From: a virus
IMG/VR virus record: IMGVR_UViG_3300045988_128600
DNA: 64,000 nucleotides
Reading direction: 5' to 3' (one strand)
A model generated the notes under the pieces. It was not told the origin of the DNA and searched no databases. It worked only from the letters and a program-made list of their open reading frames with translations. The position numbers and the translations under genes were made by a program. Positions within the stretch are counted from its first letter, which is position 1, and each line of letters starts with the position of its first letter. Below, piece after piece: positions 21,233 to 35,352 of the stretch.

Positions 21233-21329
21233 AATTTTTATTTCCTTTCTTTACTTTATATATATATTATATATTATTTTTTATAAAAAATCAAAAAAGG
21301 ATTTGCGGTTTGCGCAAATCCTTTAAAGA

Positions 21330-21545
21330 TCAGAGAATGGGAGCATAATCATAATAAATAATCATATCTTCCAGTGCATCTTTGTAAAGTTTTGTATCAA
21401 ATTTATGACAGTGGAATCGTTTCTCAACATTCTCTTCGATCGCGGACATAGCGATTTCGAGAGCGTCAGACCCACTTACGTTTGTAGCACAATAAATCTC
21501 ATCACAAGGCGCGTCATAAACGAATAAGACAGGCATATACTTCAT
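21330..21545 (-). CDS. hypothetical protein
   Basis: 71-aa ORF. Confidence 0.35.
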   Translation of the reverse strand: MKYMPVLFVYDAPCDEIYCATNVSGSDALEIAMSAIEENVEKRFHCHKFDTKLYKDALEDMIIYYDYAPIL

Positions 21546-21603
21546 ATATTATTCCTCCATTAATTGATTTTACCCAAAATTTTTGTTATAATATATTTAG
21601 AAA

Positions 21604-21849
21604 TTAAAAGATTTCAACTGCGTCTTCAAAAAGATTGAGAAACTCTTCGGCAGTCTCAGAAGATACAAGAATACTTGTTGAAGCATTGAACTGCCAATCA
21701 ATGTAGATAAATGAGAGCGGACCACCGCCCGCTTCCGCGATTTCCTCCGCATAAGTTTCAGAATTTACGGGTCGAATTTCGACGGCATTAATATTGTTAG
21801 TATTAATAAGATACTTAGAACCGCGGAAGTTGTGTAAAATTACAATCAT
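21604..21849 (-). CDS. hypothetical protein
   Basis: 81-aa ORF. Confidence 0.35.
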   Translation of the reverse strand: MIVILHNFRGSKYLINTNNINAVEIRPVNSETYAEEIAEAGGGPLSFIYIDWQFNASTSILVSSETAEEFLNLFEDAVEIF

Positions 21850-22116
21850 CTAAATGCCTCCTCAGATACAAAATTTTTAAGTTGTCTTAGAATTGCGACA
21901 CCATCAGAATAACCATCATCAAAGACATACTCATAATGAGATTTATCATTCATATAAAAGTCAAGTTTTGTTTCAAAAGTTTCAGCAGAAATGCTGTCAT
22001 TATCTGAATTATCCTTGGCAATATGAGAAATAAGAACCATGACGATTTCATTTACGTTAAGAAAAGCGCGGTCGCCATTAGACATTTTAAAATAAATCAA
22101 TTCACCTTTGTTCATT
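21846..22116 (-). CDS. hypothetical protein
   Basis: Start placed at the ATG (MNKGEL) immediately after the stop of the upstream gene. The TTG-called longer ORF overlaps 22117..22716. Confidence 0.35.
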
Positions 22117-22716
22117 TTACTTCTCCACAATATAGTCTTTCGCCACGTCTGTTCCTTCTGGAATATAAAGATAAACTCGCGCTGATTTAGAACAGATAAA
22201 GAACCACTCTCTCCAATCGCCATAACGAGGGATGCGCTTTTCAGCGTGCGGAACCTGATTAGAGTAAACAACTACCGTATCATTCACGGGATAATTCTTA
22301 GTGCTTGTAATGCCATCAGCGCTAAGCGTAAGATAAGTGTAATAAACACTTTCACCTTCGAATGCGCGGTAAGTATAGATACAGCCATCATCATCCATAC
22401 TTGTTAGCTCTTGGGCTTCCGTAATTGTATAATCGTATTCGGAATAATCCTCTTTAACAGAAGACATTATAACTCCACCAAATAGACTTATGGTAAGATA
22501 AAGACAAACGCCGAGCCAAAAGGCGGGAATAATTTGACGGGGAATGTCAACGCGGTCGCGGTGAGACCAATTGCGGAAGTGCTTAGCTTTAGGATCGGAA
22601 AGAGTGCTGTAATAGCCATAGCTACAATATGCAGAATGAATGGCGAAAATCAGAAAAATAATTAAGGTCGGTAGAACAAATCCGCCCACCAGCGTTTTCA
22701 AGAAGAAGATAAGCAT
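22117..22716 (-). CDS. membrane protein
   Basis: N-terminal TM helices. Confidence 0.45.
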   Translation of the reverse strand: MLIFFLKTLVGGFVLPTLIIFLIFAIHSAYCSYGYYSTLSDPKAKHFRNWSHRDRVDIPRQIIPAFWLGVCLYLTISLFGGVIMSSVKEDYSEYDYTITEAQELTSMDDDGCIYTYRAFEGESVYYTYLTLSADGITSTKNYPVNDTVVVYSNQVPHAEKRIPRYGDWREWFFICSKSARVYLYIPEGTDVAKDYIVEK

Positions 22717-22730
22717 ATTTAAAAACTCCT

Positions 22731-23180
22731 TTAAAGAATAGGTTTAAGTTTATCGCAGTAATTGAAATCTCTCATACAACCATTTTCCTCAGTGAAACAA
22801 GAACAACCATTTTGGCAAGTATTACGAACAATGTCGGGATTACGGACATTCGTGATGGCTTGCATATTTCCAACGATTTCTCGCTTTTGGATCATTTTCG
22901 GTGTGTCGGGAGAAGCATCAAACGCGCAGTTCACATTTTGTTCACAATTTGCGCATGTGTTAAGTTTTGCCCAACATTTATCGCAATAAGTGTTGCCTTG
23001 ATCGTCGATGATCATTTGTTTATGGAAAATTGGAGTATGACATGCTTTACAAGTGTAATATTCACCGCAAAGAAAATTATCGCAGATCGCATGATTTGGG
23101 TCAATTGTGTTGCCTGTGATTTGACATAATCCGGTCGTTGGCCGGTAATAACCGCAGTTACTACAATAAAAAGTCATCAT
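22731..23180 (-). CDS. Cys-rich (multi zinc-binding) protein
   Basis: About 25 Cys in 149 aa, arranged in CxxC patterns. Confidence 0.45.
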   Translation of the reverse strand: MMTFYCSNCGYYRPTTGLCQITGNTIDPNHAICDNFLCGEYYTCKACHTPIFHKQMIIDDQGNTYCDKCWAKLNTCANCEQNVNCAFDASPDTPKMIQKREIVGNMQAITNVRNPDIVRNTCQNGCSCFTEENGCMRDFNYCDKLKPIL

Positions 23181-23431
23181 AGTAGTTTAGCAGAATATGG
23201 AGCATCTTCGCCGTCAAATTTTAGAATCTTATCGGCGAGTTCGCGGTTAACGCGCAAAGGACCATCGTCAAGAGGGGTAAATGCGACAGTGATAAGATTT
23301 TCGAAATATTCTCCTGCCCAACGGCCGGCTTCTGCGAGGGTTTCCGCGAAGATAAAACCGCACGTGAATTTATCTATTTTGTCGGAGTCGTCCCAATAAC
23401 GTGCTTCATAATAAACGGGGCATTGCTTCAT
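23177..23431 (-). CDS. hypothetical protein
   Basis: 84-aa ORF. Confidence 0.4.
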   Translation of the reverse strand: MKQCPVYYEARYWDDSDKIDKFTCGFIFAETLAEAGRWAGEYFENLITVAFTPLDDGPLRVNRELADKILKFDGEDAPYSAKLL

Positions 23432-23447
23432 ATTTATTTTCCTTTCT

Positions 23448-23786
23448 TTAAGAAATTGTAGAGATTAGAAAAATCTCGGGATCATCAAGGCTTTCGATGG
23501 GGATTTTAAGAAACTTTGCGTAAGCTTCCTTCATTGTGTTATTAAGGCGATAATATTCCTGCGGAGCGATGAAGATATTGTCGATGCGGACGGCCTGTCC
23601 CGATTCAGCTTCGCCGAGAACATAACCAAAGACCGGATTTTCATCGTTATCATAGTAGCTTGCGCGATGCCAATAGCCTTCCTCAGTAAGCTGTTCGATA
23701 GCCTCAGTCATATTATCATAGTTCTCAAGAAGGTTCTTGGGGACTTTATAGCCACATACGAGCTTAGAACCAAAATCAACAGACAT
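23448..23786 (-). CDS. hypothetical protein
   Basis: 112-aa ORF. Confidence 0.4.
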   Translation of the reverse strand: MSVDFGSKLVCGYKVPKNLLENYDNMTEAIEQLTEEGYWHRASYYDNDENPVFGYVLGEAESGQAVRIDNIFIAPQEYYRLNNTMKEAYAKFLKIPIESLDDPEIFLISTIS

Positions 23787-23787
23787 A

Positions 23788-23985
23788 TTACTTATCCTCC
23801 TTAAGAATAGAATTGATAAAAGTGCTATACTCAGTGGGTCTTACATAATATGCGGTTTTTATTTTATTATCCCAAAGAATCGTCATAAGCTTGTCAGACC
23901 CAGAATTTTTTACGCAAATTGACCGAATGAAAGTTGTATTGATGATATGAATTTGACCTTGATTATCAATAAGTTTAGCAAGCAT
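23788..23985 (-). CDS. hypothetical protein
   Basis: 65-aa ORF; first gene after the middle-type promoter motif at about 23990-24050. Confidence 0.4.
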   Translation of the reverse strand: MLAKLIDNQGQIHIINTTFIRSICVKNSGSDKLMTILWDNKIKTAYYVRPTEYSTFINSILKEDK

Positions 23986-24109
23986 TTTTTATCACCTTTA
24001 ATAGTTTTTCTTTATTTTATATTTATATTATATATTAAAATTTAATAAAAATCAATAAAGCGGTTTTGTCGCCCCAAGGTGGTATAAAGACTGGGTTTAA
24101 TGATCGGCT

Positions 24110-24235
24110 TATCAAAAATGGTCATTTTAAATGAAAATGGTCAAAATTTTCTATATGTTGGTCTAAAATTTCTATATTTTTGTCCGTTTTTTTCTATATT
24201 TCTGGTCAAAAAATGCTGATAAAGAGATCGGATAG
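24110..24235. repeat. cluster of direct repeats (GGTCAAAATTTCTATAT-like, x4)
   Basis: The sequences ggtcattttaaatg, ggtcaaaattttctatatg, ggtctaaaatttctatatt and tttttctatatttctggtcaaaaaatg follow one another directly. Confidence 0.5.
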
Positions 24236-24259
24236 CAAGTATAGAGGCGGATTAGGGCA

Positions 24260-24455
24260 AGGAAAACCGCGTTGGTAATTTTTCATAGTTGCTTATTTTC
24301 ATATAGATGTCTAAATTTTAAACAAAATAGGTAAAAATTTTAGGTAATTTTTCATAGTTCCCTATTTTTATTTAGAATTTGTAGGTAATTTTTAATAGTT
24401 AGCGATCGGTTTAGTTAGAATTTTTAAGAAATTTTTCATAGTTGCCTTTAAAAAT
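24260..24455. repeat. iterons, TAGGTAATTTTTCATAGTT x4, upstream of the RepA_N-like gene
   Basis: Four spaced copies of ggtaatttttcatagtt (or ...aatagtt) separated by about 50 bp. Confidence 0.6.
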
Positions 24456-24505
24456 ATACTTTGGGTAAAAATTGTTAAAATTACTATTTTAGATTTGAAG
24501 TATAT

Positions 24506-25156
24506 ATGAAGGAGGTGGAAGCGTTGCCAGTAGAATAGAAAAGATTTCCTGCTAATGTAGATATGAATATATTAACTTTTTTAAATAATAAGAAAATAAA
24601 TGGTGAATTATATGCTTATTTATAGAGTTTATCTGAATATAATGTTATTAGTAAATAGCATAATATTTATAAAACTTATGTATTGAAAAAATGGTTGCCA
24701 ATTCAAAGTAAGATGTGTCAAATGCTTGGTATTAAAAGTCCTAAAACATTAAAAACGCATTTGAATTATTTAATTGAACAAGGGTATATTATAGAAGAAG
24801 AAGATAGATATATATTACCTGAAATGGAAAATATATATTTTCTTATTCCTTTACATACATTAAGATATATAAATGATAACTGTAAAGAACATATTATAAA
24901 GATATATATTTATTTGGGATAGCGTTATAAATATGCGTTAAATAATGGAAGTTAGTATGAATTTACATTAGAGGAAATTGGAGAACATAGCGGTATAAAA
25001 GTTAAGAATAATAGCAGAGGTTATGAAATTATTAATAATGCTTTAACGTTTTTATAGAATTCAGAATTGATTGATTATGTTAGTTTTTTTGATGGATAGA
25101 TGTAGAAAAAGAAATTAACAAAATTTAGTTTTGAATATAAAAATTAGAATAGGTAA
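24506..25156 (+). CDS. RepA_N / DnaD-like replication initiator (winged helix), TAG-recoded
   Basis: AAGGAGG SD then ATG at 24506. With 7 in-frame TAG read as sense the product is about 216 aa. ELYAYLQSLS...WLPIQSKMCQMLGIKSPKTLKTHLNYLIEQGYI matches the RepA_N helix-turn-helix pattern, and a second wing follows (TLEEIGEHSGI). Ends TAA at 25154-25156. Confidence 0.5.
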
Positions 25157-25240
25157 TTTTTAATAGTTGCTTAATAGGCATTTTAGGTAATTTTTCATAG
25201 ATGCTTCGACTTAAATTAGGTAAAAAATCATAGATTATCT
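25140..25240. repeat. iterons, TAGGTAATTTTT(C/A)ATAG x3, downstream of the RepA_N-like gene
   Basis: Same motif as at 24260-24455, so the gene is bracketed by the repeat on both sides. Confidence 0.55.
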
Positions 25241-25264
25241 AAGTAATAAGTAGAGGGTGTTTCC

Positions 25265-25330
25265 TAAGTAGTTTGTATGATACAAATGATCGGCTTCGCC
25301 TCACTTTGTATCATACAAACATTTGATTTT
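25265..25330 (+). terminator. long-stem hairpin terminator
   Basis: gtttgtatgatacaaa ... tttgtatcatacaaac, a 16-bp stem, followed by a T-run. Confidence 0.5.
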
Positions 25331-25352
25331 TTTGTAAGAAAGGTAATGTAGA

Positions 25353-25916
25353 ATGAAAAAAGAAGAATGGTCTAAATTAATAGGTCATGGAATAAGAGAA
25401 GATACTTATATTTTGTTAGAAAGAATGCGTGGTGGGGAAAAATATAATGATATTATAAAAGACATAGATAATAATAGAGAGAAATATCATATAAAGAAGT
25501 ATACTGCTTTATCAAAAAGAGAAACAGTAGAGAAATATTTGTTAATAGCTAATAATGAAGAAAAAGTTAAATTAAATAATATAGAAAATAAACATGGTAT
25601 TTATGGAATATATATAAATAATATTTTGATTTATATTGGCAAAACTACTACTTCATTTAAAGTAAGATTTCAATAGCATAAACATTTTATGAATGTAGAG
25701 GAAAATAAAGATTATTTATATTAGATATTAAAATGTGCTAAATAGAATAATTAGATTATAACATTAAAACCGCTTATTATAGTAGAAGATTTAAAAGTTC
25801 AATATCCTATCAAAGATAGAGATTTAGATGCTATGGAGTTAGCCTTAATAACTTTATATAAGCCTTAGTGTAATAAAATTATAGATTTTTTTAAGAGTAA
25901 AAGGAGTAAAATATGA
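25353..25916 (+). CDS. GIY-YIG homing endonuclease, TAG-recoded
   Basis: HGIYGIYINNILIYIGKT is a canonical GIY-(10)-YIG. Five in-frame TAGs extend it to about 187 aa; it ends in TGA. Confidence 0.6.
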
Positions 25917-26164
25917 GTTATAGTTATACAGATATAAAAGGCGGAAAAGGCAATCTGTCTATTGTTAAATTTAGAAGAGGAACGCAAGAATAGTTTGATA
26001 AGTTGGATAAGACAGGTATGATAAAACCTGATTTATATATGAAAGATGATACTCTTTATTTAGTTATTCCTACAAATACAAAGCCAGTAGAGGTAGCATT
26101 TGACAGTGATAAGCCTGAATCAATAGAAGAAAATCCATTCTTACAAGATTCTATTTGCTATTAA
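25913..26164 (+). CDS. hypothetical protein (one in-frame TAG)
   Basis: ATGA overlap with the upstream stop; AAAGGAG SD. Confidence 0.35.
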
Positions 26165-26302
26165 TTAAAAATTATATTATAATATAAATAGTAAAGAAAG
26201 AAATAAAATTATCCGGGGTATATTATTTCTATATAGAGTAGGGGTATTTATTCCGGGGAGCATTTCAAAAAATAAAATGAAAGTAAGGATTTGAAAACTG
26301 AA

Positions 26303-26687: not shown

Positions 26688-26762
26688 AGTGGTATTATTT
26701 GGTTTTTAATTGGTGTAGCTGTTGGATATTGCATATGGAACGCTGGAAGAGATCGATAATAG
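26688..26762 (+). CDS. 24-aa hydrophobic mini-protein
   Basis: TAAGGAGGA SD then ATG; translation MSGIIWFLIGVAVGYCIWNAGRDR. Confidence 0.3.
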
Positions 26763-26914
26763 ATCTATATTGGTTGATTCGCTTCTGGATAACAATTAAA
26801 TGTTCGGATACTACGTATCCTCACTGTAAGGGGAAAAAGGATTAAATTATAAGAGACGGGTTGAAATCGTAGAAATATTAGTAGTTGTTAATATTGTTAA
26901 AATCACTAATATTG

Positions 26915-27018
26915 CTATTAAAAGTGTGAAAATTACTATTAAAAGTGTGAAAATTGCGAGAGTGTGAAAATTACTAAAATTGCGAGAGTGTGAAAATTAC
27001 TAAAATTGCGAGAGTGTG
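26915..27018. repeat. imperfect tandem repeats carrying GTGTGAAAATT x5 (unit about 22-26 bp)
   Basis: The unit actaaaattgcgagagtgtgaaaatt is repeated about 2.5 times, with variant copies upstream. Confidence 0.6.
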
Positions 27019-27068
27019 ATGCCGATCGGTTTAACCAATCACCAACCACATTTTCCCCGTCTCCGCTC

Positions 27069-27110
27069 TCCGAGCCTAAAAAAAAGAGAGACTTTTTTTA
27101 GTCTCTCTTT
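27069..27110. terminator. bidirectional rho-independent terminator
   Basis: aaaagagagact-ttttttt-agtctctctttt hairpin. Confidence 0.6.
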
Positions 27111-27180
27111 TTTCATATTAAGCAATTCTTGGTGAAATTGTCGATTCTTAGAATGAAAAATATCTCATCCGACACATTGT

Positions 27181-27558
27181 TCACTTATTGATGAAAGTAT
27201 TCAAAAAATCGGCAATTACATCATCATCGGTTCTCTTAACCTTCTTAACCTTTACTGGCTCACTCTTGGGAAAAAGCACGTCAAGAAGACCGTTAACCCC
27301 GGTCATAAGACCGTAAACCTCAGCAAAGATGGTCTCCACATCGGACGCGGTCAACGCGGAATCCTTGCAGCCATTAAGAGCGGCATACTCGTTAATCCGA
27401 TCGGCGATTTCCTGCGCGAGCGCGGTCTTCCGATCGGCCTGCTTGGTTTCCTTCTCCACCTGCTTAACCGCATCATTCAGAGACTTAGCCATTTCGTCCG
27501 CAATAACCTGAGCGTCCTCACCATTTTTCAGACGAGCAATAATATCATTCATATCCAT
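27181..27558 (-). CDS. hypothetical protein
   Basis: Start placed at MDMNDII, directly after the middle-type promoter motif and SD. Confidence 0.45.
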   Translation of the reverse strand: MDMNDIIARLKNGEDAQVIADEMAKSLNDAVKQVEKETKQADRKTALAQEIADRINEYAALNGCKDSALTASDVETIFAEVYGLMTGVNGLLDVLFPKSEPVKVKKVKRTDDDVIADFLNTFINK

Positions 27559-27878
27559 ATGAATACCTCTTTTCTTATTTTCTATATATATTATATACTT
27601 TTTTTTTAAAAATGTCAAGATTTTTTTGGACGAAAACATACGCGTGAAACAATGTAAGGGCGAAGCAATTTTTAATTAATCATAAAGGCATATGATCCTA
27701 CGCGAGCTTAAAAAAGTCTTTTTTTACTATTATAACATATTTTTTATAAAAAGTCAATTTTCGGGATTTTTTTGGGCCATATGGAGAGGTGCTAGAAGTA
27801 TGAAAAATTTTGCATATGGGCATACCGATCGGAAACTCGGCCCGCGACGTTCCACCGCGGGCCGGTCAATCCAGTGTA

Positions 27879-28493
27879 TTAGAGTTCTTGAAGCAACTCC
27901 AAAGTTTTTTCGTATCCATACTTATTTATCAATCGAGTTGTTTCAATTATAATTTCTTTTCGATTCATTAGCATCCATCTGGGGTTATCTTCCGGCGAAC
28001 CCCATCTAAGATTTTCTAATCTATTATCAGTGCGGTTTCCGTTAATGTGATCTATAATCTATTCTTCAAAATTAATATTTGGTTGCCAAGATTGTAATAC
28101 TATACGATGTAAATTATAATTCTAATTATTAATAGAAACTCTAACATACCCCTAATAAATTGTTCCTTTTAAAATTATTTTAGTCCGTTTATTCCTAACT
28201 CGACCTAAATTAGAAACTTCATAATTCTTAGAGCAATAAGTTTCTATCCATTTTTCTCCATCTAATTCTGTCGTATCACTTCTGCGAGTAGAAAATAAAG
28301 ATTTATCAACGTCTTGCTTTTCCGTGCGCTCAACGGTATAAACTGCTTTTGCTCCAATACCTGTTCTTGTAATTAAGAATCCTCGTTTTAATTGATTCTT
28401 ACAAAACAAAGGAAAATTTGCACTAATTGTGGAGATTGCTACTCCAAAATAATCTGCTAATTCTTGTTTATTCAAAATAATCAGTCCTTTCAT
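27879..28493 (-). CDS. HNH homing endonuclease (N-terminal HTH, NUMOD4-like, HNH_3), TAG-recoded
   Basis: N-terminal HTH (QELADYFGVAISTIS) and a WIETYCSKNYEVSNLGRVRN NUMOD4-like motif precede TAG at 28152. Reading 4 TAGs as sense reveals DHINGNRTDNR-x-KNLRWGSPEDN, which is the HNH motif. Ends TAA at 27879-27881. Confidence 0.65.
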
Positions 28494-28654
28494 TATTATA
28501 TAAATTTTGGGATTTCATAATTTTCTATTTTTGTCCAATAATTTTTTTGCAAAATTTGCTAAACCTATAATTATTCCAAAATTCCGCCCGGAGCGTCAGT
28601 GATCGGGCGGTCCATTATACCACGTTTTCCGATCGGTGTCAATAGGTAAAATGC

Positions 28655-28685
28655 ACAAAAAAATCAGCAGGTTTTAGTCAACCTG
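28655..28685 (-). terminator. rho-independent terminator
   Basis: cagcaggttgactaaaacctgctg hairpin followed by a T-run on the minus strand, 3' of gene 28698..29114. Confidence 0.55.
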
Positions 28686-28697
28686 CTGATTGAATAT

Positions 28698-29114
28698 TTA
28701 TGCAAGAAATGCGTTTACAATTTCATCGAACACCGTGGGGTTAATGTCCACATTAAAAAAACGGTCATTCTTGCGGAACGCTTTGGGGTATCGTCTAATC
28801 AGTTCCGCACGCAATGCGCTTTCCGCGCCTTCGGCGGGATAGTCCCCACAAGAACGGATTCGGTGAATTTCAACGCGCGTGATAGCATACTTTTTTGCAT
28901 ACTCGCCGATTTCATCACGCAAGCGCCCTATAACATCTTTTGCGGAAGTGCCTACTTTGTTAAATTCAAGTTCGTCGTTGTTGTAAAACTTAAAAAAGTA
29001 GACTGCTTGAACGTCTTTCAGGTTCTCGCCACAATTAGGCATAAACTCCATAGAAACGGGCGGTCTGCCGTCCTTAAATCGGCGTAGCTTAATAGTAATT
29101 TCTTCCATTAACAC
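28698..29114 (-). CDS. GIY-YIG-like domain protein (putative nuclease)
   Basis: VYFFKF-(10)-KVGTS, then downstream R and E residues; weak GIY-YIG-like pattern. It shares a 29-nt 5'-UTR element with gene 31390..32166. Confidence 0.4.
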   Translation of the reverse strand: MLMEEITIKLRRFKDGRPPVSMEFMPNCGENLKDVQAVYFFKFYNNDELEFNKVGTSAKDVIGRLRDEIGEYAKKYAITRVEIHRIRSCGDYPAEGAESALRAELIRRYPKAFRKNDRFFNVDINPTVFDEIVNAFLA

Positions 29115-29231
29115 AAAATCCTCTCTATTGATTGAGGTTTACCATCGTTCTCTCAACCATTATTTTTTGTACTTTTTTGCTTGTTTTCGGGTGAAAAACC
29201 GCATTTTTCAACGGTTTTTCACCCTTTTTTG

Positions 29232-29639
29232 TCAGTTTTTGGGCTTTCGCTTCTGAATCAGGGTCAATTCATAATCATTTTCGCCCACATGGAACGCAAT
29301 CATGCGCTCAATGTTCGTGATTTCCACATTTTCGCACGCATTTTCGCTGTTTTCACGCAAAAAAGTCGCAAGTTCAGCGATAATCGAGCGTTTTGTGGGG
29401 TTTTCCTTGCGCTGTCGCTTCTCAAACTTATAAGCGGTCGGCGCTTTGCGTGTTCCGGTCTTAGAATACTTGTTAGCTTCTTTGAGCTTTTCCGCGGACA
29501 GGTCAAAGTCTTTGGCGATTCCATGGTCAATGTCATCATCGTCCATGAGAATTTCTTTTGCTTCCTCGGCAGTACAATCCAACTTTTTCATTAGATTGTC
29601 AATCTTTGCCTGAAAGTCCTTTTCACTCATTTTAGGCAT
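29232..29639 (-). CDS. hypothetical protein
   Basis: 135-aa ORF. Overlapping plus-strand and alternative-frame ORFs were judged spurious. Confidence 0.45.
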   Translation of the reverse strand: MPKMSEKDFQAKIDNLMKKLDCTAEEAKEILMDDDDIDHGIAKDFDLSAEKLKEANKYSKTGTRKAPTAYKFEKRQRKENPTKRSIIAELATFLRENSENACENVEITNIERMIAFHVGENDYELTLIQKRKPKN

Positions 29640-29703
29640 TTTCTTTGCCCCCTTTCAAGTATGATTATAACACCGCCGTCAGCAAATGTCAAGAGGAAAA
29701 TGT

Positions 29704-29738
29704 GGGAGCGCCTAATTTTTTTTTAGGCGCTCCCCTTG
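29704..29738. terminator. bidirectional terminator
   Basis: gggagcgcctaa-ttttttt-ttaggcgctccc hairpin. Confidence 0.55.
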
Positions 29739-29740
29739 AA

Positions 29741-30118
29741 TTAACGCGCCATGCGGAAGTAGGACTTGCGCTTGTCCACAATCTTTTCCACCTTGTTGGC
29801 GTCAATCATCTGACGCAGAAGAGCGGAAACGCGCTGGTTGGTGAGGTCGCCCAGATCGTCCACATTCTTAATGAGGTCGGTCACGGTATACAGCTTGTCG
29901 GGGTTTGCGGTCATTTCAGCAAGGATAATGTCCTTGTAGCCGTCGTTGGCAATCTGATTCGCGGTCGGCTTCTTATCGCCCGCGTTCTTCTTGGCGAGCA
30001 ATTCGATTTCGTGGTTGATAAACTCAACCATAGCAGGGTCAGCCTGGACCTCGGACAGCTTGAGCAGAGCCTCGAAACGGTCGCGCTTGGTGAGCTTCTT
30101 AACAGTAGAAGTAGACAT
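29741..30118 (-). CDS. hypothetical protein, paralog family A
   Basis: About 60% identical to 32307..32681 over its length; shares the HEIELLAKKNAGDKKPTA motif. Confidence 0.55.
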   Translation of the reverse strand: MSTSTVKKLTKRDRFEALLKLSEVQADPAMVEFINHEIELLAKKNAGDKKPTANQIANDGYKDIILAEMTANPDKLYTVTDLIKNVDDLGDLTNQRVSALLRQMIDANKVEKIVDKRKSYFRMAR

Positions 30119-30169
30119 AGTATCAATTCCTTTCTTTGGCGGTAGGTCGCTACCCTTTTGATATTATTG

Positions 30170-30198
30170 AGTATACCACACTTTAGAGTGCTTGTCAA
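30170..30198 (-). promoter_or_regulatory. sigma70-type promoter TTGACA-N17-TATACT
   Basis: Read from the minus strand; it drives gene 29741..30118. Confidence 0.55.
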
Positions 30199-30647
30199 GA
30201 GGTTTCGCAAACTTTTCACACGAATTACCGCCCCGACCTGACGGATAATTTATTGTTTGTTGATTCAATCTATTTGTCAGCGGAAAACCGCGTCAAGGAT
30301 AGTTGGTTCAATCAAACTCACTTTCGCGTTCAACGTTTGGCTTTACAACGTGGTGTATTATGTTTACTTCCTATACTTTCTCAAGGTCGCGCGCCCTCGG
30401 ATTTCTTGGGCTACTCCCTCTCGACATTTTCTATTGTAGCACACTCGCTGGGATTTGTCAAGAGGGAATTTCAAATTTCTTTGAAAACGGGTCAGTTACC
30501 GAGTTATCACACCCATCAGCGAAGCCGTTTGGCAATTCACTGTTCCCTCCTGACATTATTCATTATAGCAGATTGCCCGTAGATTGCAATTGACAAAATA
30601 ACCAAATTACGGGAAAAAATTTTCTTCATTTTTGTGCAACTTTTCTC

Positions 30648-30676
30648 TTGACAAAATTGGCGGGGTGTGGTATAAT
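30648..30676 (+). promoter_or_regulatory. consensus sigma70-type promoter TTGACA-N17-(TGg)TATAAT on the plus strand
   Basis: Perfect -35 and -10 hexamers with a 17-bp spacer and an extended -10. It points opposite to the flanking genes. Confidence 0.5.
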
Positions 30677-30683
30677 GGAAAAT

Positions 30684-30790
30684 TCGGACCGCTGCGTACG
30701 CTGGCGGTCCGCCCATTTTATCACAAAAATCCGCATTTGTCAATAGGCAAAATAAACAAAAAAAACTGCCCATTTTTGGGCAGTTTTTTA
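30684..30790 (+). ncRNA. candidate about 105-nt sRNA (repeat-family copy E1)
   Basis: It starts downstream of the consensus promoter with a GC stem-loop (cggaccgc...gcggtccg). An A/U-rich segment follows, then the terminator hairpin ctgccca-ttttt-gggcag and a T-run. Confidence 0.35.
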
Positions 30791-30791
30791 T

Positions 30792-31037
30792 TTAGTCCAG
30801 CAGGTTGATTTCGCCGGGAATTGCGAAAGAATCAGCGTTCAATGTGTAGTTCCAGCCCGTGGCAAAAAATTCAATCGTTCCACACTCTCTGACGTAATTG
30901 TCTACTGACCGCCGAACGTTGTTCCAGAGGTCAGTCTGTCGGCTTTCCGCTCGGGCTTCCTTGACTTCCTTTATTTGGGCGATGAGTTCGTCCAGTTCCT
31001 CGTCAGTCATGCAATTAAAATCTAAATCCATTTTCAA
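30792..31037 (-). CDS. hypothetical protein
   Basis: 81-aa ORF. Confidence 0.45.
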   Translation of the reverse strand: MKMDLDFNCMTDEELDELIAQIKEVKEARAESRQTDLWNNVRRSVDNYVRECGTIEFFATGWNYTLNADSFAIPGEINLLD

Positions 31038-31339
31038 AACTCCCTTTTAATGGCTTTTTCCCACGCTTCACGGCCGAACTTTCCCTCGCGGTCTAACTTC
31101 TTGCCAATGTCTTTTGCGGTCAGCAGGTCAAGCTCGTCCGCAATCTCATCTTCAAAGTTTACCCAAGAGTCGTAAGTCTGAATAATGAGAACTTCATCAG
31201 CTTCAAAGACGCCACCGCACTCAGCGCAGATAATATAATCGTGGTCGATTAAAATACCCATGTGAGGGTCATTATCATCAGGGACTACAAAAAGGACTTG
31301 TTTAGCGTTCATGTGAAACACCTCTTTCATTTGATACAT
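31034..31339 (-). CDS. hypothetical protein
   Basis: 101-aa ORF; the promoter at 31341-31369 lies directly upstream. Confidence 0.45.
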   Translation of the reverse strand: MYQMKEVFHMNAKQVLFVVPDDNDPHMGILIDHDYIICAECGGVFEADEVLIIQTYDSWVNFEDEIADELDLLTAKDIGKKLDREGKFGREAWEKAIKREF

Positions 31340-31340
31340 T

Positions 31341-31369
31341 GATTATACCATAGGGAATAGGATTTGTCA
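31341..31369 (-). promoter_or_regulatory. sigma70-type promoter TTGACA-N17-TATAAT
   Basis: On the minus strand the element reads gggcTTGACAaatcctattccctatggTATAATcaa. Confidence 0.55.
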
Positions 31370-31389
31370 AGCCCTATTCCCTATTTTTT

Positions 31390-32166
31390 TTAGCTCATGT
31401 TTATCATGGGATTTTCCTTAATGTTTCGCATGAGCGCACGCTGAAACTCGGTCGGCTTGGGGCGTTCCACCGTGGGAGTTTTGAAAAGGGACTTTTCCAT
31501 TTTCTTGTGCTGTCGGACGCAATAGCGCAGAATCTCAACTTCAATGAGAACATCTTCTAATCCCGTGTGGGATTCATCAAAGCTGTCCTTACCGCTGATA
31601 AAGCGATAGAGAATTTCTGCGGTGAAACGGAGCTGTCCGTTCTTGGTCTTGTAGCCGTTCTTTTCGCAATAGTCGCGGTAAGTGGGCATTTTGCCGATAA
31701 CCTGACGTGCCATTTTCAACGTGTCCCAAATTTCGAGGTCGTAGGGGAAGAAATAGCGATACTTGCTTTTCGTGTCCCATCTTTGTGCGTTGTTGCAGGC
31801 GTTAAGGTCGAACCGCATATTGTGAGCGCACACAAAAGAGCAGTTGTAGCGCTCGACACATTCGCAAAACGCAAGACGAATTTCGTAAAGGTCAGCCATA
31901 ATGCGAATGCCGTTTTGAATATCCTCGACATAGCGAGGAATCTTGTTGGCATAGTATGCGGACTGCATGAGGTCGCGTTCGTAGCAGAAAATGTCGCGAT
32001 TCACAAAGGAATGAGTTTCATAAACATTTCCCTTGGAATCAATGACTGCCCAGCCGAAGTCGTAGGGAAGCACATTTGACATATCCAGCTTATTACCGTC
32101 CTGAATGGTGTTTGCGGTTTCCGTGTCCAGCATAATGCCGTAGTTTTTGCGCCTATCAATACCCAT
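31390..32166 (-). CDS. DnaQ-like 3'-5' exonuclease (DEDDh)
   Basis: IMLDTETAN (Exo I), CAHNMRFDLN (Exo II) and HTGLEDVLIEVE (Exo III, H-x4-D) motifs. Confidence 0.6.
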   Translation of the reverse strand: MGIDRRKNYGIMLDTETANTIQDGNKLDMSNVLPYDFGWAVIDSKGNVYETHSFVNRDIFCYERDLMQSAYYANKIPRYVEDIQNGIRIMADLYEIRLAFCECVERYNCSFVCAHNMRFDLNACNNAQRWDTKSKYRYFFPYDLEIWDTLKMARQVIGKMPTYRDYCEKNGYKTKNGQLRFTAEILYRFISGKDSFDESHTGLEDVLIEVEILRYCVRQHKKMEKSLFKTPTVERPKPTEFQRALMRNIKENPMINMS

Positions 32167-32306
32167 TTTATCGTCTCCTATTGGAAAAGTAGATTGAGGT
32201 TTACCATCGTTCTCTCAACCTCTAAATATAGTATAGCACTTTGCTATTGGTTTGTCAACAGTTTTTTTTGTGGGGCAGGGGATTTTTTATCCCCTGCCCT
32301 TTTCCC

Positions 32307-32681
32307 TTATGCGTGGGAGAAGTAGGACTTGCGCTTGTCAACCGTCTTGACAACCGTGCCTGCATCAATCATCTGACGCAGAAGAGCAGAAACACGCTGG
32401 TTGGAATACTCCGCAAGCTCGGGAACGCCCTTGATGAGGTCGGTCACGGTATACAGCTTGTCAGGGTTTGCGGTCATCTCGTCCAGAATGACCTGCTTCA
32501 CAGCGTCATTCTCCATCTGCTTGGCCGTGGGCTTCTTATCGCCCGCGTTCTTCTTGGCGAGCAATTCAATCTCATGCTCGATGAACGCCACCATGTCAGG
32601 ATTTGCCTGAACCTCGCTCATTTTGAGCAGAGCCTCGAAACGGTCGCGCTTGGTGAGCTTCTTAACAGTAGAAGTAGACAT
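32307..32681 (-). CDS. hypothetical protein, paralog family A
   Basis: Paralog of 29741..30118 and 11203..11619. Confidence 0.55.
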   Translation of the reverse strand: MSTSTVKKLTKRDRFEALLKMSEVQANPDMVAFIEHEIELLAKKNAGDKKPTAKQMENDAVKQVILDEMTANPDKLYTVTDLIKGVPELAEYSNQRVSALLRQMIDAGTVVKTVDKRKSYFSHA

Positions 32682-33184
32682 AGTATCAATTCCTTTCTGG
32701 TTTTTGAGACTGTCCTTGTCTTTGATGTAGTTATTATATCATAGGTGGCGCAGGTTGTCAATAGGTTTTGCAAATTTTTTTTAGGGGCGGTCGCGAGGTT
32801 TATTACTATACATCTTGTTTATACCTACCTTTATCTATAATCATAAACCAATTCATTTTACTAAACCAAATTAGTCTTTAAGGCGGTGGACGAGCATTAG
32901 AAGTCATCTTGTTTTTACCTCTCTCATTTGATGTATTCATTATACCCTACGTAGAACGGTTTGTCAAGGGGTTTTTCAAACTTTTTTTTTGAAAGTTTGT
33001 TCGGCACGCCACGCTTGGAACATTCCGTCGGATTTTGGTATAATGGTCAAGGGAACTGCCTTTCCGCAGGTCTTACTCTTTCCTCCTGACATTATGTAGT
33101 ATAGCAGATTGGTAATGATTTGTCTATTGGCAGAATGACCAAATAACGGGAAAAAATAAAATTGAAATTTGTGCAAAATTTCTC

Positions 33185-33213
33185 TTGACAAAAATGCTGG
33201 CAGGGTGTATAAT
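33185..33213 (+). promoter_or_regulatory. consensus TTGACA-N17-TATAAT promoter on the plus strand (repeat copy E2)
   Basis: Same layout as the promoter at 30648-30676. Confidence 0.45.
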
Positions 33214-33219
33214 GGTAAA

Positions 33220-33330
33220 TTCCGGTCGCAACATGCGTTAGCGACCGGCCAATTTTATCACATTTAAGGAACTTTGTCAATAGTCAAAGTAAACAAAAAA
33301 ATCTCCCCATTTTTGGGAAGATTTTCTTTT
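33220..33330 (+). ncRNA. candidate sRNA (repeat-family copy E2)
   Basis: GC stem-loop ccggtcgc...gcgaccgg, then the terminator tctcccca-ttttt-gggaaga and a T-run. Confidence 0.3.
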
Positions 33331-33604
33331 AGCCAATCACATTGACCTCGGTTTTGATAGGCGTTACCATCTTGTCGCGCGGGAACTCGCGAACCTGACC
33401 CGTTTCAAGATTCACCGCGTAGCAATACTGCGGGCCTCTCGACCGGACAAACGGCGTGTTGTTGTTGCTGTCAATTTTAAGATACATTCCCATACCGCTA
33501 CCATTGGAACGCAGAGTGGTGAACGTGCCACCGCTGAGAACGTTGATAATCTGGAACTGACCCTTAGTGCCAAAATTTACTTTCATTTTTATTTCCTCTT
33601 TCAA
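33329..33604 (-). CDS. hypothetical protein
   Basis: 91-aa ORF. Confidence 0.4.
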   Translation of the reverse strand: MKEEIKMKVNFGTKGQFQIINVLSGGTFTTLRSNGSGMGMYLKIDSNNNTPFVRSRGPQYCYAVNLETGQVREFPRDKMVTPIKTEVNVIG

Positions 33605-33915
33605 AATTCTTCTAAGAAGTGAATCGGTTTATGATTTGGTCTGAAAAATGCCATTCCCTCGGTATAAAGAGAATTAAACAAATCCGCAGACACTTCAAAC
33701 CATTCCGTGCCACTAATGCGATTGCCCAACTCACTTAAAGTCAGATGACAAGAATTTTCCATGTCTCGGCTTCCAGCGCAAGTGCTACGCATTATTGCTT
33801 TTGGATTATGGGTGTAATAGGTTTTACGACGATTTGCAAGGTTTTTAGTGCCGTCAGAATAGCCAACTTTAACCAAATGACTATTGGCTAAATTATCCAT
33901 CATCAAATACAGCAT
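33601..33915 (-). CDS. hypothetical protein; weak T5orf172/GIY-YIG-like signature
   Basis: VKVGYSDGTKNLANRR loosely resembles the T5orf172 motif; the resemblance is weak. Confidence 0.3.
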   Translation of the reverse strand: MLYLMMDNLANSHLVKVGYSDGTKNLANRRKTYYTHNPKAIMRSTCAGSRDMENSCHLTLSELGNRISGTEWFEVSADLFNSLYTEGMAFFRPNHKPIHFLEEF

Positions 33916-33922
33916 TTTTACC

Positions 33923-34066
33923 TCACAACAGATGGGTATTGACCCAATCTGCGGTCACAAGTCCGATTTCCTTAGAGACAACCGTTTCATAGCGGTAATT
34001 ACCGCCATCAGTTCGTCCGGTCACTTTGGCGAGAACGCCAAGGGTAAGCCAAAAATAAGGCATCAT
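33923..34066 (-). CDS. small hypothetical protein (47 aa)
   Basis: AAAGGGG SD then ATG, immediately after the stop of the upstream TM peptide. Confidence 0.3.
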   Translation of the reverse strand: MMPYFWLTLGVLAKVTGRTDGGNYRYETVVSKEIGLVTADWVNTHLL

Positions 34067-34071
34067 TTTTA

Positions 34072-34278
34072 TCACCCCTTTGAACCGACCGTAAAGAGCG
34101 AACGCAGAAGCAACAGAACAATCCAAATTGCGAGCGCCAGCTTCCACGAGAACACGATGACGAAAGTGCCGATTGCGGTGATACCAAGGGCGGGAAGAAG
34201 CCAACAGAGAAGCCAAACCAGACCAGAGGTAAGCAGGAACGAAATTGCGAGAGACAGCAGAATCAAAAGAACAAACAT
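34072..34278 (-). CDS. small membrane protein (2 TM)
   Basis: Consensus promoter at 34309-34337, then SD and ATG; strongly hydrophobic. Confidence 0.5.
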   Translation of the reverse strand: MFVLLILLSLAISFLLTSGLVWLLCWLLPALGITAIGTFVIVFSWKLALAIWIVLLLLRSLFTVGSKG

Positions 34279-34308
34279 TTTATTTTTTCCTTTTCATTTG
34301 ATGTATTT

Positions 34309-34337
34309 ATTATACCATTGGAGTAGGGCTTTGTCAA
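34309..34337 (-). promoter_or_regulatory. sigma70-type promoter TTGACA-N17-TATAAT
   Basis: On the minus strand the element reads gggcTTGACAaagccctactccaatggTATAATaaa. Confidence 0.55.
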
Positions 34338-34834
34338 GCCCTTTTCTCCAAAAGTTCCGAAAGTTTTTCGATAATGTTTACTGTGGTCGGGTCAATGGTA
34401 GCGCCCAAGTGCCAACCATTCCGAACCTTTTCATTATCGTCAACCAAGATGGACACGTCATAGCGGTCGCGCACGCTGTCGGCCTTAGTCGCGCCATACT
34501 GGACGCCGTGGAAGTGGTCATAGTGGAAGCCCTGTTCTTTAAGCCACGCGCGCTTTGCTTCACGCACGAGGTTTTTGTATTCCTCGCTCGAATCCTTAGA
34601 GAGCCAAGTAATGATATTGATTTCCCAGCCCTCGGCGCGGAGAAGTTCGCAAACCTCATTCAATTCAGCCATGTCACACATGGGGACGGCAGTTCGATAG
34701 GGCTTAGGGTTTTCCGAACGGAGAAGCGCGAGCCAATCCTTGACGCCGTAGAGGTCAGCGATAGTGCCGTCCATGTCAAAGTTAATGGAGCGTCGAGTGG
34801 CCACAACGTGGGACTTGATGTAAGTGATTTTCAT
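34334..34834 (-). CDS. HAD-superfamily 5'(3')-deoxyribonucleotidase-like phosphatase (NT5C family)
   Basis: INFDMDGTIADL matches HAD motif I (DxDG) as found in dNMP phosphatases. ILVDDN supplies motif III. Confidence 0.55.
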   Translation of the reverse strand: MKITYIKSHVVATRRSINFDMDGTIADLYGVKDWLALLRSENPKPYRTAVPMCDMAELNEVCELLRAEGWEINIITWLSKDSSEEYKNLVREAKRAWLKEQGFHYDHFHGVQYGATKADSVRDRYDVSILVDDNEKVRNGWHLGATIDPTTVNIIEKLSELLEKRA

Positions 34835-34846
34835 AGGTGCTTACCT

Positions 34847-34875
34847 CTTTCCTTTACTATGCTTGTATTATACCA
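34847..34875 (-). promoter_or_regulatory. consensus sigma70-type promoter TTGACA-N17-(TGg)TATAAT
   Basis: tgtcaa at 34870-34875 and attata at 34847-34852 on the plus strand; the spacer is exactly 17 bp. Confidence 0.6.
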
Positions 34876-34926
34876 CTATTGGATTTGCTTGTCAAGTGTT
34901 TTTTTTCAAAATTTTCGCGGTCTTTC

Positions 34927-35070
34927 TTAATACACGAAAGATAAGAAATTAAGCAAAATCAACACAGGAATAGCGTAAACGATATTGAAAGAGTCCCACC
35001 CGAGACTTTCACAGGAATAAGCAAAAATAAAGCCAAAAACGAGGCCGAAAATGCCGATTAAAATAATCAT
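34927..35070 (-). CDS. small membrane peptide (about 47 aa)
   Basis: GGAGGA SD then ATG (MIILIGIFGL...). Confidence 0.4.
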   Translation of the reverse strand: MIILIGIFGLVFGFIFAYSCESLGWDSFNIVYAIPVLILLNFLSFVY

Positions 35071-35330: not shown

Positions 35331-35352
35331 TGTTTGTACCTCCTATGAGTAT

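What the first reader, a model, noticed from the sequence alone, without database searches (positions are those of the whole stretch)
27879..28493. HNH homing endonuclease whose catalytic motif only appears after TAG read-through
The annotated 113-aa ORF has an HTH and a NUMOD4-like EVSNLGRVRN motif but no catalytic domain. Continuing through TAGs at 28152, 28122, 28059 and 28017 gives DHINGNRTDNR-x-KNLRWGSPEDN, a textbook HNH_3 motif, before TAA at 27879. This is compact internal proof of the recoding. It also shows that selfish endonuclease genes in this phage are recoded.
Basis: seen in the sequence. Interest (0 to 1): 0.6.

Follow-up and report, generated by a model that had tools for sequence, protein, structure and literature searches.

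The report
TAG-recoded mobile HNH endonuclease gene
A gut phage that reads the stop codon TAG as glutamine carries a small, mobile DNA-cutting (HNH) gene with three such TAGs, parked just behind an early promoter; this is a clear new example of a phenomenon that is already described.

Summary
The minus-strand frame 28493..27879 has three in-frame TAGs, not four: 28152-54, 28122-24 and 28059-61. The frame ends at TAA 27879-81. Read with TAG=Gln, it gives a 204-aa protein (probably 198 aa from TTG 28475) with NUMOD4 and HNH_3 above Pfam thresholds. An AF2 model of a 93%-identical ortholog matches I-HmuI (1U3E).

TAG is a Gln codon here, and the gene is not a pseudogene:
- 25 orthologs carry 0-7 TAGs at more than 20 different codons, and all but two defective copies have no internal TAA/TGA.
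- A 90%-identical allele (L172) has CAA and CAG at two of the window's TAG sites, and TAG at the family's near-invariant Gln134.
- dN/dS after the first TAG is 0.09-0.31, about the same as before it.

The gene is mobile. It is a 745-bp cassette (27869-28613) that is absent from 12 of 13 collinear relatives. It sits between the -10 box of a consensus promoter and that promoter's leader hairpin.

Its codon usage (GC3 0.22, CAA+TAG) is the late class, inside a TAG-free block with GC3 0.46-0.72.

Delayed translation until the code switch is inferred, not shown. Borges et al. already proposed it for a TGA-recoded intron endonuclease. Verdict: new member of a known kind.

The parts
27879..28493 (-). 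Full HNH endonuclease ORF under code 15 (204 codons plus TAA stop at 27879-27881)
   Evidence: Translation and stop positions. Pfam NUMOD4 + HNH_3. PHROG 59 HNH endonuclease, E = 8.8e-29 over residues 74-170. About 120 full-length homologs.
28473..28490 (-). Probable true start TTG (28475-28473), preceded by Shine-Dalgarno AAAGGA (28490-28485). This would give a 198-aa product.
   Evidence: Homologs start MTKQEL/MNKQEL. L088 has ACG in place of the ATG at codon 1. Sequence read directly. The start assignment is an inference.
28152..28154 (-). In-frame TAG no. 1 (codon 114)
   Evidence: The 90%-identical allele L172 has CAA (Gln) here.
28122..28124 (-). In-frame TAG no. 2 (codon 124)
   Evidence: It is TAG in L172, L001, L087 and L088 as well. 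Other orthologs have K/R/H/Q at this column.
28059..28061 (-). In-frame TAG no. 3 (codon 145), three codons before the catalytic Asp-His
   Evidence: L172 has CAG (Gln) here.
28326..28481 (-). N-terminal winged-helix-like DNA-binding domain (residues ~5-56)
   Evidence: AF2 secondary structure H9-16, H20-25, H27-36, E39-44, E51-56. Weak Foldseek matches to the CtsR/PurR/RepE wHTH. Sub-threshold Pfam HTH hits.
28131..28247 (-). NUMOD4 module (residues 83-121), spanning TAG no. 1
   Evidence: Pfam PF07463, 34.0 bits against a cut-off of 23.4.
27984..28112 (-). HNH_3 catalytic domain (residues 128-170). Includes Asp148-His149 (28052-28047) and Asn170 (27986-27984).
   Evidence: Pfam PF13392, 40.3 bits against 24.8. 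Alignment to I-HmuI 1U3E, E = 9e-12. D148, H149, N157, N161 and N170 are invariant in 21-36 homologs. Foldseek to 1U3E, E = 1.8e-5, prob 1.00.
27885..27962 (-). C-terminal two-helix module (residues 178-203)
   Evidence: AF2 helices H178-192 and H194-203. Conserved E184, T186, R187, Y194 and L198.
27869..28613 (-). The mobile cassette (745 bp, ends ambiguous by 1-3 nt): leader plus HNH ORF plus 10 nt
   Evidence: Absent from L167, L169, L170, L173, L177, L178 and L179, where window 28604/28614 joins directly to 27868. Present in L172, L087-L089 and L001 (alignment A3).
28614..28642 (-). Consensus sigma-70/sigma-A-type promoter TTGACA-17-(TG)-TATAAT. It belongs to the insertion site, not to the cassette.
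   Evidence: 12/12 match. It is retained in the HNH-less alleles.
28662..28691 (-). Intrinsic-terminator-like hairpin ending the upstream gene (28698-29108)
28584..28610 (-). GC hairpin at the 5' end of the cassette's leader, followed by AAUUUU
   Evidence: Fold. The same leader occurs in the ORF-less alleles L168/L171/L175.
27834..27867 (-). Native leader hairpin of the promoter element, now displaced to 3' of the HNH stop
   Evidence: Fold. In empty alleles it directly follows the -10 box.

Best explanation
Window 27879-28493 (-) is an intact, selected gene for an I-HmuI-like HNH endonuclease. Its layout is an N-terminal winged-helix domain, NUMOD4, an HNH_3 catalytic core and a C-terminal helical pair. 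Its three in-frame TAGs are glutamine codons, because this roughly 195-kb gut phage of a Bacillota-type host uses TAG=Gln (code 15) for part of its genes.

The gene is the cargo of a 745-bp free-standing mobile cassette. The cassette sits between the -10 box of a consensus host-type promoter and that promoter's leader hairpin, in a block of standard-code, GC3-rich genes that I infer to be early.

Shown here: the coding frame, the domains, conserved catalytic residues, TAG=Gln, purifying selection across the TAGs, presence/absence polymorphism, and the late-type codon usage.

Inferred: the cassette is transcribed from the early promoter, but a standard-code ribosome stops at codon 114, before the catalytic domain. 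Full-length nuclease would therefore appear only once TAG is decoded (an amber suppressor tRNA is present in relatives). This would confine nuclease production to the late, recoded phase. The enzyme probably nicks or cuts cassette-less relatives near the empty site; this was not tested.
For: Frame and domains:
- Frame, stop positions and domain hits.
- I-HmuI is the only PDB match by sequence, and the only one at E <= 0.001 by fold.
- The catalytic D148/H149/N170 are invariant.

TAG = Gln:
- 25 orthologs have 0-7 TAGs at more than 20 different columns. The Gln134 column is CAA x17 / TAG x3; two other columns are Q16/TAG6 and Q10/TAG5.
- L172, about 90% identical in nucleotides, swaps TAG for CAA or CAG at codons 114, 134 and 145.
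- dN/dS for codons 114-204 is 0.09-0.31, against 0.07-0.13 for codons 1-113.
- Genome-wide, ORF coverage rises from 0.66 to 0.83 under code 15. TerL has 7 TAGs and portal 9. TerL TAGs 67, 321 and 382 align with Gln in standard-code phages.

Mobility:
- 12 of 13 collinear relatives (82-96% nt identity) lack the ORF, with clean junctions.

Promoter context and codon class:
- TTGACA-N17-TATAAT with at most 1 mismatch occurs 36 times against 1.1 expected, and 28 of these lie in 27590-41699.
- The HNH gene has GC3 0.22 and Gln codons 6 CAA / 0 CAG / 3 TAG. Its neighbours have GC3 0.46-0.72 and 0 TAG in 31 Gln codons, Fisher p = 0.0085.
- The same pattern holds for a second, polymorphic HNH in L003.

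Suppressor tRNA:
- An amber suppressor tRNA(CUA), within an array of at least 14 tRNAs, is present in clade members that share the syntenic early gene.
Against: - No tRNA of any kind lies in the 64-kb window, and the suppressor was not found in the closest relatives by exact-pattern search. The decoding agent for this particular genome is therefore unidentified.
- 'Early' is inferred only from promoter type, codon class and TAG avoidance. There are no expression data.
- TAG positions are not conserved among orthologs, and two orthologs (L093, L094) have none. The TAGs could therefore be neutral late-class codon usage rather than a selected lock.
- The leader hairpin followed by AAUUUU might terminate part of the early transcripts.
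- The site also hosts other cargo (L174: two small ORFs; L168-type: leader only), so exchange there need not be driven by the endonuclease.
- No nuclease activity or target site is known.
Confidence: 0.8

Rival explanations
1. The TAGs have no regulatory role. They are neutral Gln codons that accumulate (CAG->TAG) in any gene translated only in the recoded, AT-biased late phase, or they were inherited from a donor with late-type codon usage. The gene is recoded, but it is not 'locked'.
For: The TAG share of Gln codons (3/9 = 0.33) is ordinary for late genes in this window, which range from 0.2 to 0.7. TAG positions vary freely among orthologs, and two orthologs have none. Close alleles interchange TAG and CAA/CAG.
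Against: The cassette lies directly behind a 12/12 consensus promoter of the class that marks the TAG-free block. A second HNH cassette in a relative shows the same contrast with its neighbours. Borges et al. found an endonuclease family significantly enriched in recoded stops.
Confidence: 0.4
2. It is a two-product gene. Under the standard code the first 107-113 residues (wHTH plus half of NUMOD4) are made early as a DNA-binding protein without nuclease activity, for example a site protector or regulator. Read-through later yields the nuclease.
For: In the window and its five nearest alleles, the first TAG falls exactly between the DNA-binding half and the catalytic half. An early-type promoter sits upstream.
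Against: The first TAG is at codon 124 in L172, and anywhere from codon 7 to codon 203, or absent, in other orthologs. No truncated isoform is therefore conserved. The truncation also cuts NUMOD4 in the middle.
Confidence: 0.1
3. It is a decaying pseudogene of a homing endonuclease that has picked up nonsense mutations. Only the 113-aa ORF, or nothing, is expressed.
For: Under code 11 the gene is broken three times. Homing endonuclease genes often decay after fixation (established knowledge).
Against: All three stops are TAG, and none is TAA or TGA, in 204 codons (p about 6e-7 by composition). There are no frameshifts. dN/dS is 0.09-0.31 after the first TAG. TAG interchanges with Gln codons between alleles. 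The catalytic residues are invariant. The phage's essential genes carry the same TAGs.
Confidence: 0.03
4. It is a domesticated HNH protein that serves the phage, for example in host-DNA degradation, exclusion of competitors or packaging, rather than a selfish homing element.
For: The family occupies the same neighbourhood across relatives down to about 34-69% identity. The cluster of the 93%-identical protein has 173 member sequences. Purifying selection is strong.
Against: 12 of 13 closely related collinear genomes do without it. A paralogous cassette is likewise polymorphic. It is not adjacent to the terminase (47403-49142).
Confidence: 0.12

Closest known systems
I-HmuI (Bacillus phage SPO1 HNH homing endonuclease, PDB 1U3E)
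   Same: It is the only solved structure matched by sequence (E = 9e-12, residues 81-176 against 9-106) and the only fold match at E <= 0.001 (Foldseek E = 1.8e-5, 117 columns, 27% identity). It has the same NUMOD4-like beta region followed by the HNH core, and the same Asp-His...Asn catalytic positions.
   Different: I-HmuI is encoded in a group I intron, and its DNA-binding HTH is C-terminal. This gene is free-standing (no Rfam intron), has an N-terminal winged-helix-like domain plus a short C-terminal helical pair, and contains TAG sense codons.
TGA-recoded group I intron endonuclease in an early gene of Agate-clade phages (Borges et al., bioRxiv 10.1101/2021.08.26.457843)
   Same: A homing-type endonuclease that lies in the early part of a recoded phage and carries the recoded stop codon. 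The authors proposed that the in-frame stops prevent endonuclease production until late in infection.
   Different: That case uses TGA=Trp, is intron-borne and belongs to another clade. This one uses TAG=Gln and is a free-standing cassette behind a promoter. It comes with an allelic series (empty, leader-only, HNH, other cargo) that pinpoints the insertion site.
Code-15 (TAG=Gln) phages: crAss-like, Lak, Sapphire and similar clades, and the phAss-1 group
   Same: TAG occurs in the structural and packaging genes, early genes are TAG-free, and clade members carry a suppressor tRNA(CUA). TerL is 44.6% identical to phAss-1 and 47% to Enterococcus phages H1 and VRE9_4. The roughly 195-kb size and the scattered recoded modules resemble the description of Sapphire.
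   Different: Membership of a named clade could not be tested, because no reference sequences were held. No tRNA is present in this 64-kb window.
Free-standing homing endonuclease genes of T-even phages (mobE, seg genes) - from general knowledge
   Same: Intergenic, promoter-associated, and present or absent among close relatives.
   Different: Those genes use the standard code. No cleavage site or marker co-conversion was examined here.

Membership tests
HNH_3 / I-HmuI-like HNH endonucleases | Pfam HNH_3 (PF13392) match above the gathering score | tested here: met
   40.3 bits against a cut-off of 24.8, residues 128-170. The post-TAG fragment alone scores 43.3 bits.
HNH_3 / I-HmuI-like HNH endonucleases | NUMOD4 module N-terminal to the HNH core | tested here: met
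   34.0 bits against a cut-off of 23.4, residues 83-121.
HNH_3 / I-HmuI-like HNH endonucleases | Catalytic Asp-His (general base) and the distal metal-binding Asn are conserved | tested here: met
   D148, H149 and N170 align with the I-HmuI 'DH' and 'N' and are invariant in 21 and 36 homologs. The residue roles come from the literature on 1U3E, recalled from memory.
HNH_3 / I-HmuI-like HNH endonucleases | Beta-beta-alpha-metal fold | tested here: met
   AF2 model of the 93%-identical P0001, pLDDT 86.6. Foldseek top hit is 1U3E, prob 1.00. The window's own sequence could not be submitted.
HNH_3 / I-HmuI-like HNH endonucleases | DNA nicking or cleavage activity | not testable with these tools
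   Needs an enzyme assay.
Mobile (homing-type) endonuclease gene | Present or absent at one site in otherwise collinear genomes | tested here: met
   1 of 13 relatives seeded by the flanking gene carries it. Junctions were mapped.
Mobile (homing-type) endonuclease gene | Cleaves the cassette-less allele and is copied into it | not testable with these tools
   No target site is known. The same site also holds other cargo.
Mobile (homing-type) endonuclease gene | Located in a self-splicing intron or an intein | tested here: not met
   No Rfam family reaches its gathering score anywhere in the window. The cassette lies in a 5' leader, not in a gene. It is therefore free-standing.
Code-15 (TAG=Gln) recoded phage | Essential conserved genes need TAG read-through, and ORF coverage rises under code 15 | tested here: met
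   TerL has 7 TAGs and portal 9. Coverage rises from 0.66 to 0.83.
Code-15 (TAG=Gln) recoded phage | TAG aligns with Gln in homologs | tested here: met
   HNH family. TerL against standard-code phages.
Code-15 (TAG=Gln) recoded phage | Phage-encoded suppressor tRNA(CUA) | tested here: inconclusive
   None in the window. It is present in five contigs of more distant clade members. It was not found by exact pattern in the closest relatives. About two thirds of the genome is unseen.
Stop-codon-gated endonuclease (Borges et al. model) | Endonuclease gene in the early region carrying the recoded stop, with TAG-free neighbours | tested here: met
   3 of 9 Gln codons are TAG, against 0 of 31 in neighbouring genes. 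'Early' is inferred from promoters.
Stop-codon-gated endonuclease (Borges et al. model) | Translation of the full-length enzyme is delayed until the code switch | not testable with these tools
   Needs time-resolved proteomics or ribosome profiling.

The most novel reading that the evidence does not exclude
The cassette exploits the phage's dual genetic code. It inserts at the promoter-leader junction of an early transcription unit, so it is transcribed by the host polymerase from the first minutes of infection. Its TAG codons and late-type codon usage keep the nuclease untranslated until the phage's own tRNA set, including the amber suppressor, is active. Under this reading, stop-codon recoding acts as a selected safety catch that lets selfish nucleases live in early regions, and it does so repeatedly across HNH cassettes of this clade.
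Probability: 0.35. Interest if true: 0.55.

Novelty: new member of a known kind. Interest (0 to 1): 0.35.

Why it matters
The gene is a compact and unusually well-controlled demonstration of TAG=Gln. Nearly identical alleles interchange TAG with CAA or CAG, and empty-site alleles define the element to the nucleotide.

It extends to a TAG-recoded phage of a Bacillota-type host the published idea that recoding can hold back a homing endonuclease sitting in an early region.

It also offers a concrete test system. The pieces are the cassette, the empty site, the leader-only allele and a second polymorphic HNH cassette in a relative that shows the same codon contrast.

Practically, it shows that code-11 annotation truncates such genes to a DNA-binding stub and hides the nuclease.

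Tried and rejected
- Megablast of window 20000-44000 against GenBank phages gave no match.
- The HNH-seeded IMG/VR scan found almost no close relatives. Seeding with the flanking gene worked.
- Group I intron hypothesis: rejected. No Rfam hit anywhere in the window, and the cassette lies in a leader.
- Other HNH paralogs in the window: none found with a family HMM on code-15 six-frame translations.
- Apparent TAG-containing ORFs in the early block (35067-35792, 38839-39345, 39678-40151): judged spurious read-throughs of non-coding DNA.
- Suppressor tRNA search: none in the window or in 48 loci scanned during the search. A generic anticodon/T-arm pattern found one in a clade member. One follow-up pattern had a wrong spacer and found nothing. 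Corrected patterns found it only in the more distant subgroup.
- A shuffle test timed out and was replaced by an analytic estimate.

Full report
**1. The observation**

On the minus strand, the frame that opens at ATG 28493 is a 113-aa ORF under the bacterial code. Reading on in the same frame meets only three internal stops, and all three are TAG: 28152-54, 28122-24 and 28059-61 (codons 114, 124 and 145). The frame ends at TAA 27879-81.

The codon there is TTA, and the motif reads DHINGNRTDNRLENLRWGSPEDN.

With this ORF's base composition, the chance of 90 further codons without TAA or TGA is about 2e-3. The chance for all 204 codons is about 6e-7. The two other frames of the same strand hold 12 and 22 TAA/TGA.

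**2. What the protein is**

With TAG read as Gln, Pfam gives two hits above threshold:
- HNH_3: 40.3 bits, cut-off 24.8, residues 128-170.
- NUMOD4: 34.0 bits, cut-off 23.4, residues 83-121. This hit spans the first TAG; the truncated ORF scores only 27.9 bits.

PHROG 59 (HNH endonuclease) matches residues 74-170 in one stretch, E = 8.8e-29.

A profile of the family finds a single solved structure, I-HmuI (1U3E), at E = 9e-12. The Asp-His and distal Asn of the active site are aligned. These residues (D148, H149, N170) are invariant in 21 and in 36 homologs.

An AF2 model of the 93%-identical ortholog P0001 has pLDDT 86.6. It shows:
- a three-helix plus hairpin N-terminal domain;
- a beta-rich NUMOD4/HNH core, whose best fold match is again 1U3E (Foldseek E = 1.8e-5, prob 1.00);
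- two C-terminal helices.

The N-terminal domain gives only weak winged-helix matches (CtsR, prob 0.91). "HTH" is therefore plausible but not firm.

The real start is probably TTG 28475, behind AAAGGA. Homologs begin MTKQEL or MNKQEL, and one close allele has ACG in place of the ATG.

**3. TAG is glutamine, and the gene is under selection**

The protein database holds about 120 full-length relatives at 52-93% identity. These had been called with TAG=Gln, because their genes do not translate to the stored proteins under the standard code.

I took the DNA of 25 orthologs and aligned them codon by codon:
- They carry 0-7 TAGs each, at more than 20 different columns.
- None has an internal TAA or TGA, apart from one low-coverage frameshifted contig and one truncated copy.
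- Where TAG falls in a conserved column, that column is Gln. The family's near-invariant Gln134 (LQSW) is CAA x17 / TAG x3. Two other columns are Q16/TAG6 and Q10/TAG5.

The clearest case is L172, an allele about 90% identical in nucleotides:

| Codon | Window | L172 |
|---|---|---|
| 114 | TAG | CAA |
| 124 | TAG | TAG |
| 134 | CAA | TAG |
| 145 | TAG | CAG |

dN/dS against four close alleles is 0.09-0.31 for codons 114-204 and 0.07-0.13 for codons 1-113. This rules out a pseudogene.

The rest of the window agrees:
- ORF coverage rises from 0.66 to 0.83 when TAG is sense, while TGA recoding gives no gain.
- TerL (47403-49142) has 7 TAGs and portal (49612-51174) has 9.
- TerL TAGs 67, 321 and 382 align with Gln in the standard-code Enterococcus phage H1 and Geobacillus virus E3.

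**4. Context: two codon classes**

The window splits into two kinds of block.

Recoded, AT3-rich blocks lie at 1-7300, 24200-26200 and 44900-64000. Their genes have GC3 0.11-0.25, and Gln is written CAA or TAG.

TAG-free blocks lie at 7300-24200 and 26700-44900. In the second of these, genes have GC3 0.46-0.72 and Gln is mostly CAG. In the TAG-free blocks no credible ORF ends at TAG: 0 of 27 in the first and 3 of 35 in the second. Those three are the HNH stub and two spurious ORFs.

The second TAG-free block is dense with consensus promoters. TTGACA-N17-TATAAT with at most one mismatch occurs 36 times against 1.1 expected, and 28 of the 36 lie in 27590-41699. This is why I call the block early.

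Together with TerL relatives in Enterococcus and Geobacillus phages and phAss-1, the promoters point to a Bacillota-type host. Both the "early" label and the host are inferences.

The HNH gene lies in this block, but it has GC3 0.22 and Gln codons 6 CAA / 0 CAG / 3 TAG. Its neighbours have 0 TAG in 31 Gln codons (Fisher p = 0.0085).

**5. It is a mobile cassette**

I seeded IMG/VR with the upstream gene (29232-29639). This gave 13 collinear relatives at 82-96% nucleotide identity, on contigs of up to 197 kb. Only L172 carries the HNH gene.

The site occurs in several forms:
- Empty (7 genomes): the -10 box is followed directly by the native hairpin...GTGGTATAA|TGGCCGG... (alignment A3).
- Leader-only (4 genomes): the cassette's leader without the ORF.
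- Other cargo (L174): two small Cys-rich ORFs.
- HNH-occupied: the window, L172 and the metagenome contigs L001 and L087-L089.

The cassette is therefore window 27869-28613, 745 bp. It lies between the -10 box of a 12/12 promoter (28642-28614) and that promoter's GC hairpin (27867-27834). The promoter itself follows the terminator of the upstream gene (28691-28662).

No group I intron or any other Rfam family is present in the window, so the gene is free-standing.

A paralogous HNH in a related 197-kb phage (L003 8473-9048) is absent from L004 and L005. It shows the same contrast: GC3 0.18 and 6 TAGs, against neighbours with GC3 0.55-0.64 and 0 TAG.

**6. How it probably works**

Shown: this is an intact, selected, mobile HNH gene whose nuclease half lies behind TAG codons.

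Inferred: host RNA polymerase transcribes it from the early promoter. Under the host's code, the ribosome stops at codon 114, before the catalytic domain. The full enzyme would be made only when TAG is decoded.

Clade members that share the syntenic early gene encode tRNA(CUA) within an array of at least 14 tRNAs. Most of these have U at the wobble position, and their anticodons match the A-ending codons of the late class.

There are limits to this picture:
- The window itself has no tRNA.
- The closest relatives were not hit by exact-pattern search for the suppressor.
- In one relative the tRNA array is interleaved with homologs of the window's radical-SAM genes, but it is not in the window.

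The decoding agent for this genome is therefore unidentified.

The main rival is that the TAGs are merely neutral late-class codons. TAG positions are not conserved, two orthologs have none, and the TAG share is ordinary for late genes. A conserved truncated isoform is unlikely for the same reason.

**7. Comparison with what is known**

TAG=Gln phages and late-gene recoding are established. Borges et al. reported a TGA-recoded group I intron endonuclease in an early gene of Agate phages. They proposed that its in-frame stops delay endonuclease production.

This case is a TAG version in a different phage group. It is free-standing rather than intron-borne, and an allelic series maps its insertion point. 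I file it as a new member of a known kind.

The roughly 195-kb size and scattered recoded modules resemble the published description of Sapphire-clade phages. Membership of that clade could not be tested.

**8. Verdict**

The delayed-translation (gating) mechanism remains an inference. Interest is 0.35.

Noticed in passing
window ~30631-30794, 33165-33331, 35700-35840, 38055-38153, 40154-40354; degenerate copy at 27830-28642: A repeated palindromic element of about 165 nt. Two convergent consensus promoters (TTGACA-17-TG-TATAAT) face each other across a GC-rich hairpin that is followed by AATTTT on either strand. Each transcript would therefore begin with a terminator-like hairpin. The elements are conserved in relatives. 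The HNH cassette is inserted into one of them. Their function is unknown.
   Followed up: partly
whole window (gene table): One phage genome holds two sharply different codon-usage classes. The TAG-free block at 26700-44900 has GC3 0.46-0.72 with Gln mostly CAG; the other TAG-free block (7300-24200) is intermediate (GC3 0.25-0.51). The recoded genes have GC3 0.11-0.25 with Gln written CAA or TAG. Several structural-block genes have no TAG at all: 52788-53705, 53723-54829 (probably the major capsid), 54917-55510, 58795-59793 and 61197-61730.
   Followed up: partly
L312, L316, L315, L313, L215 (IMG/VR contigs _160359, _140174, _147738, _120995, _141926): Relatives carry a tRNA array of at least 14 genes. 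It includes tRNA(CUA) with an unpaired 1:72 position, G73 and an encoded CCA. Most anticodons have U at the wobble position. In L316 the array is interleaved with homologs of the window's radical-SAM genes, yet the window has no tRNA there.
   Followed up: partly
window 24200-26200 (+): An AT-rich, heavily recoded island on the opposite strand, inside the TAG-free region. ORF 24506-25156 has 9 TAGs (75% of its Gln codons) and weak HTH hits. ORF 25353-25916 has a GIY-YIG-like motif (GIYGIY...YIGKT) and 5 TAGs, with only a sub-threshold RE_Eco29kI hit. The island differs among close relatives and may hold a second recoded nuclease cassette.
   Followed up: partly
window 195-6851 (-): A cluster of three CxxxCxxC radical-SAM-type proteins, one of them fused to a GT2 glycosyltransferase (195-2291, 8 TAGs). 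Next to it lies a 259-aa Ser/Asn/Tyr-rich protein made of YSSNN(A/G)xRSS-like repeats (6072-6851). This may be an enzyme-substrate pair.
   Followed up: no
L174 7062-7546: At the exact site of the HNH cassette, one close relative carries about 480 bp encoding two small acidic Cys-rich ORFs (41 and 51 aa, no TAG). The promoter-leader junction is therefore a general cargo hot spot.
   Followed up: partly
window 7772-9202 and 11710-13314 (-): Two large proteins (476 and 534 aa), apparently paralogous, with C-terminal clusters of CxxC motifs (zinc-ribbon-like). The first matches only a PHROG of unknown function, and the second was not scanned against any family library.
   Followed up: no
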